Position numbers: made by a program. Shown here piece after piece: positions 21,001-27,000 of a stretch of 64,000 bases of DNA. Positions within the stretch are counted from its first letter, which is position 1, and each line of letters opens with the position of its first letter. Where the stretch lies: contig NC_092384.1 of NCBI RefSeq assembly GCF_030028105.1, forward strand, positions 16,995,629 to 17,059,628, in the 5' to 3' direction. This DNA comes from Mobula birostris. Lineage: Eukaryota.

Positions 21001-24000
21001 ATGAAGTCATGATGTTGGATCTCGGCCTTAAACGTCGACATTTTAGATCTGCCTGATGGGCTGAGTTCCTCCATTTTATGTGTTATTCTGAATTCAGCAT
21101 GTTCAGAATCTTCTGTGCTCAATGTAAATGGAAGTCTTTACAAGTCATAGCTTGTGGGGTAAATGTGACCTTGTTAAGAACAGTAACTGAACAGCTACCC
21201 AAACACGGAAAGAATGGCTAATTTTGAAGTTTAGTAATTGACAGGGAATATTAAACGTGAACGGTGTTCAAAAGTTAAAGTGTTATTCCGGTCAGTGTTA
21301 ATCGTGTAGGACGAATAAGGAAATTGAATTCGTGCAATATTTGTAAGGTAGCAAACGTTTGAACATTTGCTAAAAATATGACAAAGCAAAACTTAAACTC
21401 TAAAAGACATAGTAATATAACAAAGGTGAGAATATGCATTTCGTATCTTACGATATATTTCCCGATCGTGTGTACTGAGATTTGAAACGAGCCTGTAAAA
21501 TATTTTGGATTGTTGATTGTCATGTGTGCATTTGTTTTTAGATGAAGAAATGCTTCACAGTTTCTTGTTTTTCCCCCTATTGATCCACAAGGTGCTGATA
21601 CTAAATTGATTCTCTCATATACACTGAAGGGAGCGGCAATTTTAGCACTGATAATGGTTTTGGTGACAGTCAACTTAAAGAGATCGCACGGTAAGAACGA
21701 TGATCGCTGAGAAACATCACCTCTATTCGTCCAAACAGATGCGTTAATGATATTTAACCGCAAAACAGTAAATGCCCTTTACAAAATGACTGGACATGGA
21801 TTGCGATTTTCGAAGTCAGACTCAGTGATAATGCCCAGTTACAATAGAAGGTAGATCTTAAAATTCAACTATTTCACCAGTCCACTCGAAGTATTACACA
21901 TCTCATTCACAAATGCTTTTCTATAATTTTGGAGTTCTTCAACTGTTTTAAATGCAATGGCAGATCTATACTTTGAAGCGTAAAGAACACTGACGAGCTC
22001 GTGCATGTCTCATTGATTTTAATTTCCATTTCAGCGACAGTATTTAAGTGTAGTACGGCCACTGATATACTATTATCACTTTACAGCTTCGTTAAAAGTT
22101 TATTGAGCATAGTGCCATGAGGTTGACGCGGAACACACACTGTATCAGGACAATTGATATCACCAAATGCTTTCTGAAATATCCGTACCTTGCGCAGTTC
22201 GTCTTACACAATGAATTCGATTCGTATCAAACGAATAAAGTCCAATTTTTACAATACAAATAATTTATTTTATTTTTCTTAAGGGATTAACAGAAGTTCC
22301 TTGAACAGATGTCAGAATGAGGAGCCGGTAGGTGAACTGGATCGTCTTCTTTCAGAGCCATGTATACGCATAGTAGAGATATTATAAATTTATTTTGTTC
22401 CACAACATTTTGGAATGCAGTAGGGAAGAATGAAACCATTCTCTCTGACCAGTTTTTAAATTTTGAAGTATATATCCAAGATGTATTTGAATATTCCTGT
22501 TGAATATGCTTCAAATCGTCTTTGAGGATTCAACACCAGTTCATAACCGGTTGCATTAAGGCGCTCGGCAATATTAACTAATGGACGTTAAGCAGTTACT
22601 CATACTTCGTGTGGCGAATAATTAAATACAAATCTAAGACTGGGATGTTTTAGATGTAAAATGTCGGTTTACGAGAATTGCGATGTAGTGCCAATCGGAA
22701 AATACAGTACACGCACGAATCATTTCGCAATATATGTTACATTTGATTTGAACGCACAGTAAGCAAGCTTAAAAATGCAATGAAATCTTGCTTTGGAACG
22801 TCATATGCAGTTTTTAACCCCGATTCCCAACAAAGATTCACACAGCCGTGCATAACCTGCAATGTAATCGAATATGCTTCCAATTAAACCTTGTACTATC
22901 TGGTGCACAATGATACCCAAACCAAACTCCACAAGACACCTTCTACTCCACGGGGCTACGCTGAACGATGATCATCCTCAATTTGGAAAGAAATGCCTGA
23001 AACATATAAATGTATTGTCATCTCCCATTTTGGATTCAAACCAGATATTAAAAACCTATAACGACATCTTTGGAGGCAGTAATAGTTGTCCCTTCAGATG
23101 GAACCTCCTTCCCCAGAAAGCAACGTAAATGTTAGCTGTTTCTCTTTGCTCTCGTGTTTCCTGTTTCACCGTAAGTTTTATTTGTCTGTTTTATTTCATA
23201 TTTCCAGCAGTTTAATGTTATTAAATTTGTCCCACCTGGATTCTCCTGATAGGATATATTAAATATTTATCGGTTGTATACCCATCTGTCTACAACTGGA
23301 AACGTCTTCTTGTGTTCCATTAATCGCCTTCCCAATTTTAGCACATATTTTTACTTTTACGTAACAATAGCTGCTGCAGCAACTTTTCACATCACCAAAA
23401 CAAGAATGTCATATATAATACTGGTTTTATTATAGCAGAATTCCGTAAGTACTTTCATCAGTGTTCGTAGTACTTCTTGGAATGAAGGACTGCTAATGCG
23501 AGGAATACCTAAGTTGAAGCTAGAACATTCAAGATAACATTTTCACTGTTGTTTTATTGCTCTGGTATGCTATGTCATTGTTTAAGCCAAAACAAATGCT
23601 ATTTTAACTATTTACTTTAACGGGCAAGTCCATCTGCTCTAATTATTTCGATCGTAGTTTAATTGATGCACTAGTAAAACCAATCAGCTCATCAGCGGGC
23701 AAGATGCTTCTCCCATATTTGCTGCCTTAGTTACGTAAGTACACCAGGTCTTGCCATTTGTTTCAAGGTTCATAACTTAAACAATGCGAGCTTTAAGGGT
23801 CACCGTTTCGAATTGCACCGAGGGGACGAAATCTGGTCATGCCAATGATTACAATTATTTGACGGGGTGCGTAAGGGAAACGGATCGGATAAAGCCCATG
23901 CAAAAAAAAACTTAGAGGATCGTAACTAGAGATATGACAAAAAAAATGAAACAAAAGAGATGGCCAGAACTGAGAAACGCCTCGATAGATAGGAAGGTTT

Positions 24001-27000
24001 TAACTGGTTGTTTGGAAATCTAATGTACACAGCGATTTCCCGCCTGAAATGGATTTGGTATCCCACTCCTGTAAGATATAGGGACAATATTTTTGTGCGC
24101 ACCCAAAATGTTACTCCAACCATTTAAAATAATTTTCTATGATTACATGTTCCGAATCGAACTTAGTTCATGGTCACTGACCTCTGTATTCGTTACCAGT
24201 ATTAACTGTGTTTTCTCTAGCAGGCTGAACAAGGAGCGGTTGAGCACGCCACTGCTTATAATTCACTAAATATGAGGGAGAGCACAGGAATTCGCAAAGA
24301 TCCACAACAAGAAGTGCGCATTATCTAATCTCAGGTAACGCCGACAGATTAGCTTGAAGAACATATGAATTTGTTTTTGAGATATAGCACTGCAACAGAG
24401 CCATCCGGCGGAACTAGTTCGTCCCGCCCAATTACACCCATGTGACCAATTAGCATACTCAACAGTTCGTCTTTGGAATGTGAGAGGAAGTCAGAGCGCC
24501 CGAAGAAAATCGTACGGTCATGGGGCGACGAACAAACACACTATTTAGTCAGGGACGGAAATTCAACCTGGATCACTGCTGCTGTAATACGGTTACGCTA
24601 GCCTCTACGCCATCGTGCCACCCAAAATATATATAAGACCAACATATAATTGAACATTATTAGATTATGAGAACACTAAGTCCCTTTTTATTGTCATTTA
24701 GAAATGCATACATGCATTAAGAAATGATAAAATGTTTCTCTGGAGTGATATCACAGAAAACAAGACAGACCAAAGACTAACACTGACACAACGACATAAT
24801 TATAATATATAGTTACAGCAATGTAAAGCAATACCACAATTTGATAAAGAACAGACCATGGGCACAGTGAAATAAAGTCTCAAAGTCCGGAGTCGATCGA
24901 CTCCTGAGTCCCCGATAGCAGGCGGCAAAAGGGAGAAACTGCCTGCCATAAAACTCCAGACACCGTCAACTTGCCGATACCTTGGAAGCAGCCGACCCTA
25001 GCCGACACTGAGTCCGTCCGTTCGAAAACTCCGAGCTTCCGACCAGCCTTTCCGATACAGCCTCCCGAGCGCCATCCTCTGCCGAGCGGCTTCGGCCTCT
25101 CCCCGGCCGCTGAAACACGCAAAGCCGAGGATTTCCGGGCCTTCTGCTCCGGAGATATCCGGTTACCACACAGCACCAACGGCAGCGAAGCAGGCATTTC
25201 AGAAGCTTTCCAGGTGTTCCGCTGTTATCTCACGTCTGTCTCCATCAAATCAGAATTGCTCACGGTCCCCTACTTGACAGATAACAGTTTTTCATCACCG
25301 AAGTGGCCGCGGGCACTGACGTCACACCGCCATCTTCTCCCCCCTCCCGCGAGGCTCATTTTACGACACTGAGCAGACCTTTGGCACTTTACCAAAATGT
25401 AGACTGCACCAGAGCTCACCCTCTTTCACAGAAAATGAACCTGGTACCATTTACAACTGAACGCTCTCGAAATATAATCACCTTTTACTTCAGTCCAGGT
25501 GGACTCCAACCTGAAGGCATGAACACTGATCTCTCGAACTTTTGAACTATTTCATCATCCCCCTTCTCTTTTTTCTCTATTCCTAATTCTGACTTCCTTT
25601 CACCTTTTCTCTCCTCTCCATCTGCCCATCACTTCCACTGGTGCACCTCTTCCTTCCATTTCATCCAGGGTCCACTGTCACCTCCTAAAAGATTCCTTCT
25701 TGCACCCTTTTCCTTTTCCACCTATCACCTCCCAGCTAACTACGTCATTCCATCCCCGATCATTCACACAGCTTCTTACTCACCCGGTTTCTCCTATCAC
25801 CTGCCATTTTGTACTCTTTCCACACCCTGTTATTCTAGCTTCTGACCACTTCTTTTGCTGTCCTGATAAAGCGCTTCGGACAGAAACGTCGACAGTTTAT
25901 ATGCCTTCATACATGCTACCTTACCTAATGAATTACATCGGCATTTTCTTGCATTTCTCAAGACTTTCAGCATCTACAGGAACCTTCGAGATTATCTTTT
26001 TCCCATTGCTTTTACGAATTTGATTTCATATGTTATGTGCAAACAAGGAAACACTAAAAAGCATGAAACTAGATATAACCATCCTTTGCAACGCCTATTA
26101 CCAGCTCCATAATGGACATGAATAACTGATCCAACCGAACAGTGGTGTTATTCATGGAAATATCGAATAGTGACAAAACAGTAACCATACGGCATGGATC
26201 ATGACAGTGTCTGTGAGCATTTGGAGTTCTGCAGGAAACACCCGGAAGATCTCTTGACTGAAACGTTTGCGGCAATCAGACACATATAACACAAAAAGGC
26301 GCTTGCATTTTGAGGTATAAAATATTTTGTACTATACCCGTTTAAGGAGTTACCTACTCTCCCAAGTCGATTTTGTTAAAATTCATTTCAAGTAAGGAAA
26401 GAAACGCTTATATTTCTGTGGGACGACGCAGGTTCTTGGAGTTGAAATACCACATGAATCAAAAAGCAAAATTTTGAAAAAAAATGACATAAACATTGTG
26501 TAAAGCGGCAGACACCTAAAATTGATAACTTATGAGTGCATAACTAATTTATTTCATAATTTTTGATTCGATTTGTCAACTCGATGATTGTCGATTAACC
26601 ACTAATTTCAAATTATTTTCACAGACTAAAAGAAATGGAGCTGACAATCTGGCTTACGCCGCTCTGCAGTTTCCCGATTCCAAGAACACCTCAGCAGCCC
26701 AACATCAAAACCAACATACATTGTATACAGATGTAAATGCATCAAGGAAACTGTGAAGATGAGAACCAACTGGCGTTCAGAGCTATAGGTTGTCAAGGAC
26801 TGCAGGCACCAGGCATTGCTTCGTTCCATTTCTTGCATTCAGACAAAAGCTTGTTAATCGATATCACATGCATAAGTTGACAAGATAAGCGATCATTTTA
26901 GTCACCGAAGTTCCTGTGATTTAATTGGGGCGATTATCACTGGAAAAATAATAAAAGTAAGAAATGTAAGAATAAGATTGAGAATAAGCCATTCTGCCTC

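What the first reader, a model, noticed from the sequence alone, without database searches (positions are those of the whole stretch)
22327..26756. Exon 6 as a splice toggle between a short tail and an ITIM+ITSM tail
Seen: exon 5 ends in phase 0, exon 6 is phase 0-0 (111 or 114 nt, NAGNAG acceptor) and exon 7 starts in phase 0. Including exon 6 gives ~300 aa ending ..EVRII* with only TAYNSL; skipping it gives ~309 aa ending in LAYAAL and TLYTDV. Exon 7 remains fully open with both motifs intact although it lies after the stop. Inference: one gene could produce both activating-type and inhibitory-type isoforms, or the stop is simply recent.
Basis: inference. Interest (0 to 1): 0.65.

Follow-up and report, generated by a model that had tools for sequence, protein, structure and literature searches.

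The report
Manta immune receptor with stop-bearing exon
A giant manta ray immune-receptor gene has an old stop codon, shared with stingrays, that cuts off its inhibitory tail; the leftover tail exon still looks usable, but nothing shows it is used.

Summary
The window is giant manta ray (Mobula birostris), not human. Two exons match NCBI protein XP_072135415.1 (300 aa) at 100%.

**Observation:** exact. Exon 5 ends in phase 0 at 22327. Exon 6 is 111 or 114 nt (TAGCAG acceptor) with TAA at 24326-28, 6 nt before its donor. Exon 7 (26625-26756) is open and encodes LAYAAL and TLYTDV. The two CDS sums give 300 and 309 aa.

**The stop is not recent:**
- It replaces the Tyr of a conserved (I/T/V)IYSQ motif, present in 10 of 10 long-tail relatives and as TAT in a dead in-window copy.
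- Two stingray proteins end at the same residue (..RII).
- These two and the manta protein are the only ones with a charged transmembrane residue (Lys in manta, Asp in stingrays).
- The three group together in a tree (support 93/97).

**The splice toggle is possible but unshown:**
- A manta paralog has an annotated isoform lacking exactly this exon.
- None of the three RII genes has such an isoform.
- Exon 7 has as many private changes as the dead copy (8 vs 7).

**Most likely:** an old charged-TM, short-tail member of a SIRP-like paired-receptor family, with exon 7 a slowly decaying untranslated terminal exon.

The parts
16818..16872 (+). Exon 1: ATG plus signal peptide (MAEKFTVSYMTLLAITWL), ends in phase 1
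   Evidence: Sequence read; matches the N-terminus of P0005
17076..17381 (+). Exon 2: V-set Ig domain with a J-like G strand (FGRSCSTKLTVF), phase 1-1
   Evidence: Translate; Pfam V-set E 1.1e-10; 100% identical to P0005
20691..20984 (+). Exon 3: C1-set Ig domain, phase 1-1
   Evidence: Translate; Pfam C1-set E 2.4e-13; 100% identical to P0005
21592..21690 (+). Exon 4: transmembrane segment LILSYTLKGAAILALIMVLVTV with Lys codon AAG at 21627-21629
   Evidence: Translate. The Lys lies in the most hydrophobic 19-aa window. The same column is Asp in P0178 and P0179 and Gly in long-tail relatives
22284..22327 (+). Exon 5: 44 nt, juxtamembrane (G)INRSSLNRCQNEEP, ends in phase 0
22328..22387 (+). Read-through of the exon 5 donor: 19 codons (VGELDRLLSEPCIRIVEIL) then TAA; a possible third, tyrosine-free tail
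   Evidence: Models P0011 and P0029 end with homologous 19-residue read-through tails
24221..24334 (+). Exon 6: 114 or 111 nt (TAGCAG acceptor, 24221 or 24224), phase 0-0, encodes TAYNSL. TAA at 24326-24328 lies 6 nt before the donor
26625..26756 (+). Exon 7: 43 codons plus TGA, encodes LAYAAL (ITIM-type) and TLYTDV (ITSM-type). Untranslated when exon 6 is included
26950..26955 (+). AATAAA, 194 nt after the exon 7 stop: likely polyadenylation signal of the terminal exon
   Evidence: Pattern listing; function inferred
37210..43953 (+). Decayed duplicate of the 3' part of a family gene, colinear with 22752-28000 at 68-76% identity. No V, C1 or TM exons
   Evidence: blastn self-comparison; tblastn; motif scan
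40146..40220 (+). Relic exon 6': only the 3' 25 codons (ANLNYRESKPFRKDRQQVDRVIYSQ), TGA directly upstream. TAT (Tyr) at 40212-40214 aligns with the TAA of the live gene
42576..42707 (+). Relic exon 7': still open for 43 codons with the stop at the same place. LTYVAL kept, ITSM Tyr lost (TLHAGV)
   Evidence: Nearest protein is Hypanus P0176, 33/42

Best explanation
The gene at 16818-26756 (+) is the Mobula birostris gene for XP_072135415.1. It belongs to a multigene family found across cartilaginous fish. Family members have a VJ-type V domain, one C1 domain and a transmembrane segment, and the family works like SIRP or KIR paired receptors.

The ancestral long tail is exon 6 plus exon 7 and carries four tyrosines: TxYxxL, (I/T/V)IYSQ, LTYAxL and xLYADV. 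In this gene the Tyr codon of the second motif is TAA. The default mRNA therefore gives a 300-aa receptor with one tyrosine motif (TAYNSL) and a Lys inside the membrane segment.

This is an old, kept tail type rather than a fresh accident, because the same stop position and a charged residue at the same TM column occur in two stingray species. The stop lies 6 nt before the last exon junction. Under the 50-55 nt rule, nonsense-mediated decay should spare the mRNA (inferred from the rule; recalled, not from a call).

Exon 7 is then spliced on as an untranslated terminal exon. It looks intact because ray sequence decays slowly, not because it is translated (inferred). Signalling of the short form through the TM charge is also inferred; the partner is unknown.
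For: **Identity of the gene**
- V and C1 exons are 100% identical to P0005. It was the only 100% hit: 1 of 14 and 1 of 28.

**The stop is derived**
- 10 of 10 long-tail relatives have Tyr where this gene has TAA.
- The in-window relic has TAT at that codon.

**The stop is old**
- P0178 ends at residue 209 of 209 and P0179 at 304 of 304, exactly at ..RII.
- Exon 6 identity is 29/34 to P0178 and 24/34 to P0179, against at most 23/34 to any long-tail relative.
- On 87 columns of TM+exon5+exon6, with the stop itself not a column, the tree gives (manta,(Hemitrygon,Hypanus)), support 93/97.

**Charged TM goes with this tail**
- 3 of 3 RII-ending proteins have K or D in the 19-aa hydrophobic core. 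None of the 11 ray proteins with the exon-7-type long tail does.

**Exon 7 is no better kept than a dead copy**
- Residues unique against six long-tail exon 7 peptides: 8 here, 7 in the relic, 2-6 in live copies.
- Changes at the 23 invariant sites: 4 here, 4 in the relic; 0-4 in live copies (leave-one-out, 23-27 sites).
- The relic is also open, with the same stop position.

**Paired-receptor pattern**
- The ectodomain is 82-88% identical to manta long-tail (P0172, P0168) and Arg-TM short-tail (P0008) genes, but only 52/101 (V) and 67/97 (C1) to Hypanus P0179, whose tail is the closest full-length match.
Against: - All six motif-defining residues of exon 7 (L, Y, L and T, Y, V) survive, and there is no stop or indel. 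The relic lost the ITSM Tyr. That fits some constraint, although 7-8 random changes in 43 sites would often miss 6 sites.
- A paralogous manta gene has an annotated isoform that skips the homologous exon (P0009 vs P0168), so the splicing machinery can skip it.
- The counts are small and overlap one live copy (P0176: 6 unique, 4/27).
- The three RII tails sit on unrelated ectodomains. Tail exchange, or independent TAY-to-stop changes, cannot be fully excluded; tree support is 93/97, below the tool's 95/80 star.
- Lys versus Asp at one TM column is not what simple pairing with an acidic adaptor predicts.
- No RNA data and no DNA of other rays could be examined here.
Confidence: 0.55

Rival explanations
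1. Regulated toggle. Exon 6 is a cassette exon. Inclusion gives the 300-aa Lys-TM receptor with TAYNSL only. Skipping gives a 309-aa receptor with ITIM plus ITSM. Exon 7 is kept by selection on the skipped form.
For: - Exon 6 is phase 0-0 with canonical sites.
- Isoforms X1 (349 aa) and X2 (312 aa) of a manta paralog differ by exactly this 37-residue exon.
- The stop is old, yet exon 7 keeps its frame and all six motif residues.
- The stop is 6 nt from the junction, so both mRNAs should be stable (rule recalled).
Against: - Each of P0005, P0178 and P0179 is the only sequence in its cluster: 0 of 3 have a second isoform. No other protein has a 100% V or C1 match.
- Exon 7 has 8 unique residues against 7 in the dead relic, and 4 against 4 changes at invariant sites.
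- The relic's exon 7 is also open, so openness carries little weight.
- The exon 6 acceptor is not markedly weaker than the others: pyrimidine fraction 0.65, the same as exon 7.
Confidence: 0.3
2. Recent or individual event. The TAA is a young mutation, a segregating allele or an assembly error in this one genome, and the gene was until lately an ordinary inhibitory receptor.
For: - It is a single-base difference from TAT/TAC.
- Only one manta assembly was seen.
- No Mobula hypostoma protein closer than 86% in V was found, so no close ortholog confirms the stop within Mobula.
Against: - The same end point is found in two stingray proteins, with 29/34 and 24/34 exon 6 identity and a common branch, support 93/97.
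- The TM of this gene carries the subtype's own residues (YT, charged residue, VNLKR), shared with those stingray proteins.
Confidence: 0.04
3. Recurrent or transferred truncation. The stop arose independently in the three species (TAY to TAA/TAG is one step), or the RII tail module was moved between family genes by recombination. Its age as a property of this gene would then be unknown.
For: - The three RII tails are attached to ectodomains of different sub-lineages: V 52/101 to P0179, against 88/101 to manta P0172.
- The family shows other independent short tails (P0011, P0029, P0014, P0016, P0017).
Against: - Shared derived residues outside the stop (HAT for HTT, YT and the charged residue in the TM, VN for VK) and the tree point to one origin of the module.
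- Ectodomain homogenisation within a species is the usual pattern in paired-receptor clusters (general knowledge, recalled).
Confidence: 0.07
4. Dying gene. The whole locus is a pseudogene in decay, and neither isoform matters.
For: - The window holds two dead family fragments: the relic at 37210-43953 and a minus-strand C1 pseudo-exon near 1850-1950.
- This shows turnover in the cluster.
Against: - All seven exons are open with canonical splice sites.
- Both Ig domains score above the Pfam cut-offs.
- Exon 6 is 85% identical to Hemitrygon across a split dated to about the K-Pg boundary or earlier.
Confidence: 0.04

Closest known systems
SIRP family (SIRP-alpha, beta, gamma; SHPS-1)
   Same: - Non-rearranging receptor with a V domain carrying a J-like strand, followed by a C1-set domain.
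- Long-tail relatives have four tyrosines in two ITIM/ITSM-like pairs, as SIRP-alpha does (SIRP-alpha motifs recalled).
- Family members with near-identical ectodomains have either long tails or short tails plus a charged TM residue, as in alpha versus beta.
- The family profile hits the SIRP-alpha ectodomain 2wng at E 6.3e-26 (rank 4 of 10287) and SIRP-gamma at 8e-21.
- NCBI names several members 'tyrosine-protein phosphatase non-receptor type substrate 1-like'.
   Different: - One C1 domain instead of two.
- Ig heavy chains and shark UrIg2 score better than SIRP in the same search, so orthology is not shown.
- Here the short tail comes from a stop inside a conserved tail exon, with the old ITIM exon still downstream.
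- The TM charge is Lys in manta but Asp in stingrays.
Activating KIR (KIR2DS/3DS) and KIR2DL4; also NKp44
   Same: - Works alike: an inhibitory-type gene whose tail is cut short by a premature stop, combined with a basic TM residue.
- KIR2DL4 and NKp44 combine a charged TM residue with one tyrosine motif.
- All of this is recalled, not from a call.
   Different: Unrelated Ig domains (no V plus C1 pair), a different lineage, and no known adaptor in rays.
CEACAM1-L/S and PECAM-1 exon-skipping isoforms
   Same: One gene gives tails with or without ITIM/ITSM by including or skipping a short cytoplasmic exon (recalled). This is what the toggle reading proposes.
   Different: - In CEACAM1 the switch works through a frameshift, and inclusion gives the long tail. 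Here inclusion would give the short tail through an in-frame stop.
- No transcript evidence here.
B7-H6 (NCR3LG1) and PD-L1, the names NCBI gives this and sister models
   Same: V plus C-type Ig ectodomain. The single V exon finds PD-L1 V domains at E about 1e-4.
   Different: - The V domain has a J-like GxGTxLTV strand.
- No B7-family chain is among the best 60 of the profile search.
- The automatic names are inconsistent across near-identical paralogs: NCR3LG1-like, SHPS-1-like, PD-L1-like, MHC II alpha-like, Ig lambda-like, TCR beta-like.

Membership tests
SIRP family | N-terminal V-set domain with a J-like G strand (GxGTxLxV) | tested here: met
   Pfam V-set E 1.1e-10. This gene has FGRSCSTKLTVF; the family consensus is GNGxGTxLTVF.
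SIRP family | Membrane-proximal C1-set domains (two in SIRP-alpha) | tested here: not met
   Only one C1-set exon lies between V and TM (Pfam C1-set E 2.4e-13; exon map). The C1 type is met; the number is not.
SIRP family | Specific sequence relationship to SIRPs rather than to Ig/TCR/MHC in general | tested here: inconclusive
   Profile A1 finds SIRP-alpha 2wng at E 6.3e-26 (rank 4). UrIg2 (1.6e-31) and the IgA1 heavy chain (2.8e-30) score higher.
SIRP family | Tail with four tyrosines in ITIM/ITSM-type motifs (inhibitory member) | tested here: not met
   Long-tail relatives have them. This gene's annotated product keeps only TAYNSL because of the TAA at 24326-28.
SIRP family | CD47 binding; SHP-1/2 recruitment; synteny with SIRP loci | not testable with these tools
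Paired activating/inhibitory receptor cluster | Near-identical ectodomains joined to opposite tail types within one species | tested here: met
   V identity is 88/101 to long-tail P0172, 82/101 to P0168 and 83/101 to Arg-TM short-tail P0008, all M. birostris on the same 86.2-Mb contig.
Paired activating/inhibitory receptor cluster | Short-tail members carry a charged TM residue | tested here: met
   K in this gene; D in P0178 and P0179; R in P0008 and P0010; E in P0029. None of the 11 exon-7-type long-tail ray proteins has one.
Paired activating/inhibitory receptor cluster | Association of the charged TM residue with an ITAM adaptor | not testable with these tools
   No ray adaptor sequence was in hand. 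The Lys/Asp swap argues against assuming it.
Cassette-exon tail switch (CEACAM1-L/S type) | Exon symmetric in phase with usable splice sites, so skipping keeps the frame | tested here: met
   111 or 114 nt, phase 0-0, AG/GT sites.
Cassette-exon tail switch (CEACAM1-L/S type) | Both transcripts observed for this gene | not testable with these tools
   No RNA data. The protein collection holds only the exon-6-included model for this gene and single models for P0178 and P0179. A paralog has both forms (P0168, P0009).
B7-H6 / B7 family (NCBI's automatic name) | B7-type V domain and closest similarity to B7 members | tested here: not met
   No B7-family chain is among the best 60 of 10287 profile hits. 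The V exon alone hits PD-L1 only at E about 1e-4, behind CD79b.

The most novel reading that the evidence does not exclude
For at least the time since mantas and stingrays split, one gene has carried a stop-bearing 111-nt cassette exon as a built-in switch. Inclusion gives a charged-TM receptor with a single tyrosine motif. Skipping puts an ITIM plus ITSM tail on the same ectodomain and the same charged TM. The TM charge, Lys in manta and Asp in stingrays, may pair not with a classical acidic adaptor but with oppositely charged members of the same family, such as the Arg-TM short-tail genes. The family would then supply its own signalling partners.
Probability: 0.12. Interest if true: 0.7.

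Novelty: new member of a known kind. Interest (0 to 1): 0.4.

Why it matters
Paired activating and inhibitory receptors are a recurring answer to pathogen pressure in mammals, birds, frogs and bony fish. This locus shows the same logic in rays, one of the oldest jawed-vertebrate lineages:
- homogenised ectodomains;
- old and distinct tail modules;
- a short tail made by a nonsense change at a signalling tyrosine;
- a charged transmembrane residue.

Five literature searches found no paper describing this family in cartilaginous fish. The listings shown were only part of each result, so this is not proof that none exists.

It also gives a caution for genome readers. An open downstream exon with intact motifs is weak evidence of use in slowly evolving genomes, because a dead copy 16 kb away looks almost as good.

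If the splice toggle were real, it would be an unusually old example of one gene encoding receptors with opposite tails.

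Tried and rejected
**Searches that gave little**
- *Exon 7 peptide, longer proteins.* 6 candidates, none scored, even though relatives with 79% identity exist in the same collection. The tool is blind to so short a query, so this null says nothing about a skipped isoform.
- *C1 exon against the 50% representative library.* 765 hits, mostly multi-domain Ig proteins. Useful only for pulling in shark and chimaera relatives.
- *UrIg / UrIg2.* Best PDB hit for C1. The paper PMC12227049 (passages seen) describes a VJ gene with many C domains and has no mention of SIRP, ITIM or ITSM. It is not this family.
- *Literature.* No description of this ray/shark family found. One search was used only for divergence dates. 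One search failed on a too-short term and was not repeated; one search failed the same way and was corrected.

**Analyses that did not discriminate**
- *dN/dS of exon 7 against the in-window relic.* pN 0.22, pS 0.33. Exon 7 nucleotide identity is 75%, against 73-76% for three flanking stretches and 61% for the 150 nt upstream. This is uninformative, because the relic lineage is itself neutral and 129 nt is too little.
- *First 'private change' count (Fisher p = 0.016 for the TM, computed).* I first read the odd TM as acceleration in this gene. Searches showed that those residues are the shared signature of the RII tail type, so that reading is withdrawn.
- *First relic exon 6' alignment.* It was one base out of register; redone.

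**Not attempted**
- No complex or structure prediction was run.
- Paper supplements were not consulted.

Full report
**Source and rules.** The window is not human. Its V exon (17078-17380) and C1 exon (20693-20983) are each 100% identical to one NCBI protein, XP_072135415.1 of the giant manta ray Mobula birostris. That protein is P0005, 300 aa, named 'natural cytotoxicity triggering receptor 3 ligand 1-like' and located on an 86.2-Mb contig. The window has no N. I did not translate or search a joined model; the two protein lengths below come from adding exon lengths.

**The gene.** It lies on the + strand and has seven exons with AG/GT sites throughout.

| Exon | Coordinates | Content |
|---|---|---|
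| 1 | 16818-16872 | ATG and signal peptide |
| 2 | 17076-17381 | V-set domain, Pfam E 1.1e-10 |
| 3 | 20691-20984 | C1-set domain, Pfam E 2.4e-13 |
| 4 | 21592-21690 | Transmembrane segment |
| 5 | 22284-22327 | Juxtamembrane |
| 6 | 24221 or 24224 to 24334 | First tail exon |
| 7 | 26625-26756 | Second tail exon |

Exons 2, 3 and 4 are phase 1-1, as is usual for Ig-superfamily genes. Exon 5 (44 nt) brings the frame to phase 0.

**Check of the observation.**
- Exon 6 has a TAGCAG acceptor and reads (Q)AEQGAVEHATAYNSLNMRESTGIRKDPQQEVRII*SQ. The TAA is at 24326-24328, only two codons (6 nt) before the CAG|gtaacg donor.
- Exon 7 reads TKRNGADNLAYAALQFPDSKNTSAAQHQNQHTLYTDVNASRKL*.
- With exon 6 the coding exons sum to 903 nt, or 300 aa. 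This is the length of P0005, which uses the 24224 acceptor. Without exon 6 they sum to 930 nt, or 309 aa.
- An AATAAA lies 194 nt after the exon 7 stop.

**The family.** Searches with the V and C1 exons found relatives in several groups:
- rays: Mobula birostris, M. hypostoma, Hemitrygon akajei, Hypanus sabinus and Narcine bancroftii;
- sharks: Heptranchias perlo and Scyliorhinus canicula;
- the chimaera Callorhinchus.

NCBI's automatic names for near-identical paralogs are inconsistent: NCR3LG1-like, SHPS-1-like, PD-L1-like, MHC class II alpha-like, Ig lambda-like and TCR beta-like. A profile of 14 family members found shark UrIg2, an IgA heavy chain and then the SIRP-alpha ectodomain in the PDB. 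SIRP-alpha (2wng) scored E 6.3e-26 at rank 4 of 10287, and SIRP-gamma scored 8e-21. No B7-family chain was among the best 60. The V domain has a J-like strand. I therefore call the family SIRP-like by architecture and behaviour, without claiming orthology.

**Three tail types.** Alignment of the ray proteins shows three kinds.
- *Type I.* An uncharged TM (ILACALGGSAIL...) and a long tail made of exon 6 plus exon 7, with four tyrosines: TxYxxL, (I/T/V)IYSQ, LTYAxL and xLYADV. This layout recalls SIRP-alpha (recalled, not from a call).
- *Type II.* An Arg in the TM (ILIFRSALGG...) and a short unrelated tail (P0008, P0010).
- *Type III.* This gene plus P0178 (Hemitrygon) and P0179 (Hypanus). It has a polar TM with a charged residue at one column: SYTLKG here (Lys codon AAG at 21627-29) and AYTVDG in both stingrays. 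The tail stops at ..RII.

In one search a charged residue sits in the most hydrophobic 19-aa window in 3 of 3 RII-ending proteins. It does so in 0 of the 11 ray proteins with the exon-7-type long tail.

**The stop is derived but old.** In 10 of 10 long-tail relatives compared residue by residue, a Tyr follows (I/T/V)I where this gene has TAA. The stop therefore replaces the tyrosine of the second signalling motif. A dead copy in the same window has TAT at that codon (40212-14).

The stop is not recent, for four reasons:
- P0178 ends at residue 209 of 209 and P0179 at 304 of 304, at exactly this position.
- Exon 6 of this gene is 29/34 and 24/34 identical to them, but at most 23/34 to any type I protein, manta paralogs included.
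- A maximum-likelihood tree of TM+exon5+exon6 (87 columns; 15 rows, none dropped; the stop is not a column) puts the three together as (manta,(Hemitrygon,Hypanus)). Support is 93/97, just under the tool's star threshold.
[quoted passage not shown] If inherited, the stop is of that age or older.

**A mosaic gene.** The ectodomain tells the opposite story from the tail.
- V is 88/101 identical to manta type I P0172 and 83/101 to manta type II P0008, but only 52/101 to Hypanus P0179.
- C1 is 85/97 to manta P0170 and P0008, but 67/97 to P0179.

Ectodomains homogenised within a species, joined to old and distinct tails, are the pattern of paired-receptor clusters (general knowledge, recalled). The mosaic also means I cannot exclude that the tail module moved between genes.

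**Is exon 7 kept by selection?** The window supplies its own control.
- Region 37210-43953 is a colinear duplicate of 22752-28000 at 68-76% identity.
- It has no V, C1 or TM exon.
- Its exon 6' lacks the first part and has a TGA directly upstream. The stretch between the aligned blocks holds unrelated sequence, including a 230-codon open frame at 39258-39950.
- It is a relic. Its tail is nearest to Hypanus type I P0176, 33/42.
- Yet its exon 7' (42576-42707) is still open for 43 codons, with the stop at the same place and with LTYVAL intact. Only the ITSM tyrosine is lost, giving TLHAGV.

Comparison against six type I exon 7 peptides, one per gene lineage:

| Exon 7 copy | Residues found in none of the comparison peptides | Changes at invariant sites |
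|---|---|---|
| This gene | 8 | 4 of 23 |
| Relic | 7 | 4 of 23 |
| Live type I copies (leave-one-out) | 2-6 | 0-4 of 23-27 |

Exon 7 here therefore looks no better kept than a dead copy. The one exception is that none of its changes hits the six motif-defining residues, and two of them sit next to the tyrosines (LTY to LAY, YAD to YTD). The numbers are small and overlap one live copy (P0176), so this leans toward neutral decay without settling it. Nucleotide identity of exon 7 to the relic (75%) is similar to three of the four flanking stretches (73-76%; the fourth, the 150 nt upstream, is 61%), and dN/dS against the relic is uninformative.

**Is the exon skipped?**
- A paralogous manta gene has three NCBI isoforms: X1 349 aa, X2 312 aa and X3 306 aa. 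X2 lacks exactly the 37 residues of this exon and joins ..NEEP to TKGNGADKLTY... Skipping of the homologous exon is therefore annotated in the family.
- For this gene, and for P0178 and P0179, the collection holds one sequence each (clusters of one).
- No other protein matched the V or C1 exon at 100%: 1 of 14 and 1 of 28.
- The exon 7 peptide search found nothing at all. Since it also missed known 79% relatives, that null carries no weight.
- The exon 6 acceptor has the lowest pyrimidine content of the gene (0.65), but it ties with exon 7.
- I have no RNA data.

**Most likely mechanism.**
- *Shown:* the default reading gives a 300-aa receptor with V and C1 domains, a Lys inside the membrane segment, and a tail with a single TxYxxL motif. 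This tail type is shared with stingrays.
- *Inferred:* because the stop lies 6 nt before the last junction, the mRNA should escape nonsense-mediated decay (50-55 nt rule, recalled). Exon 7 would then be spliced on as an untranslated terminal exon that decays slowly. The short form would signal through its TM charge.
- *Open:* what that charge pairs with. Lys in manta against Asp in stingrays at one column does not fit a simple acidic-adaptor model.

I give this reading 0.55 and the regulated toggle 0.30. The rest is split between recurrent or transferred truncation (0.07), a recent or allelic stop (0.04) and a dying gene (0.04).

**Comparison with known systems.** The locus works like SIRP-alpha/beta or KIR2DL/2DS pairs, and like KIR2DL4 or NKp44 in combining a charged TM with one tyrosine motif. 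The toggle reading would resemble CEACAM1-L/S (all recalled). It is a new member of a known kind. Five full-text searches found no paper on this family in cartilaginous fish. I saw only listings and abstracts for those, passages of PMC12227049 and passages of PMC6485097.

**What stayed unchecked.**
- RNA evidence.
- DNA of the stingray and other Mobula genes.
- The closed collections metagenome contigs and viral contigs.
- Paper supplements.
- Any binding partner.

Noticed in passing
window 37210-43953 (+), with exon 6' at 40146-40220 and exon 7' at 42576-42707: Decayed duplicate of the 3' end of a family gene (68-76% identical to 22752-28000) with no V, C1 or TM exons. Its tail is nearest to Hypanus sabinus P0176 (33/42), so a type I lineage still alive in a stingray appears dead in the manta.
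   Followed up: yes
window 22328-22387 (+): Reading through the exon 5 donor gives 19 codons and then TAA. NCBI models P0011 (M. birostris) and P0029 (M. hypostoma) end with homologous 19-residue read-through tails. The M. hypostoma counterpart of P0011 (P0174, same 90% cluster) has the long tail. A tyrosine-free short tail by intron retention or early polyadenylation may be a family habit.
   Followed up: partly
window 21627-21629 (+); P0178 and P0179: The charged TM residue of the RII-type tail is Lys in manta but Asp in both stingrays at the same column: opposite charges in what look like orthologous modules.
   Followed up: partly
window about 1847-2059 (-): Fragment of a family C1 exon on the opposite strand (..VIYTCVASHETLKIPANFS*IIEQG). 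An in-frame stop sits where relatives have Tyr (FSYIIEQ), and the upstream part is degenerate. It is another dead family piece.
   Followed up: partly
window 24219-24223 (+); P0178 and P0179: The stingray models carry one extra residue before AEQ (K in P0178, Q in P0179). A tandem acceptor may therefore be conserved, with the upstream site used there; the manta model uses the downstream one.
   Followed up: no
window 29971-30417 (-); 39258-39950 (+); 19618-20444 with 7716-8535 and 53763-54618: Mobile-element debris. There is a DDE_3 transposase fragment (Pfam E 1.7e-08). A 230-codon frame inside the relic hits Pfam ALKBH8_N (2.8e-07). An interspersed repeat of about 830 nt occurs at least three times, once in intron 2 of the gene.
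   Followed up: partly
proteins P0014, P0016 (Hemitrygon) and P0017 (Hypanus): Three stingray family models end ..CQNEETTK or ..CQDEETTK right after exon 5. They look like another independent way of losing the tyrosine tail.
   Followed up: no
proteins P0078 and P0085; window 47762-47884, 49229-49345, 58134-58316, 60401-60520, 62320-62403: The N-terminal parts of these two unnamed family models match repeated, non-receptor sequence in the window. They are probably chimeric gene predictions that fuse repeat-derived sequence to a receptor.
   Followed up: no
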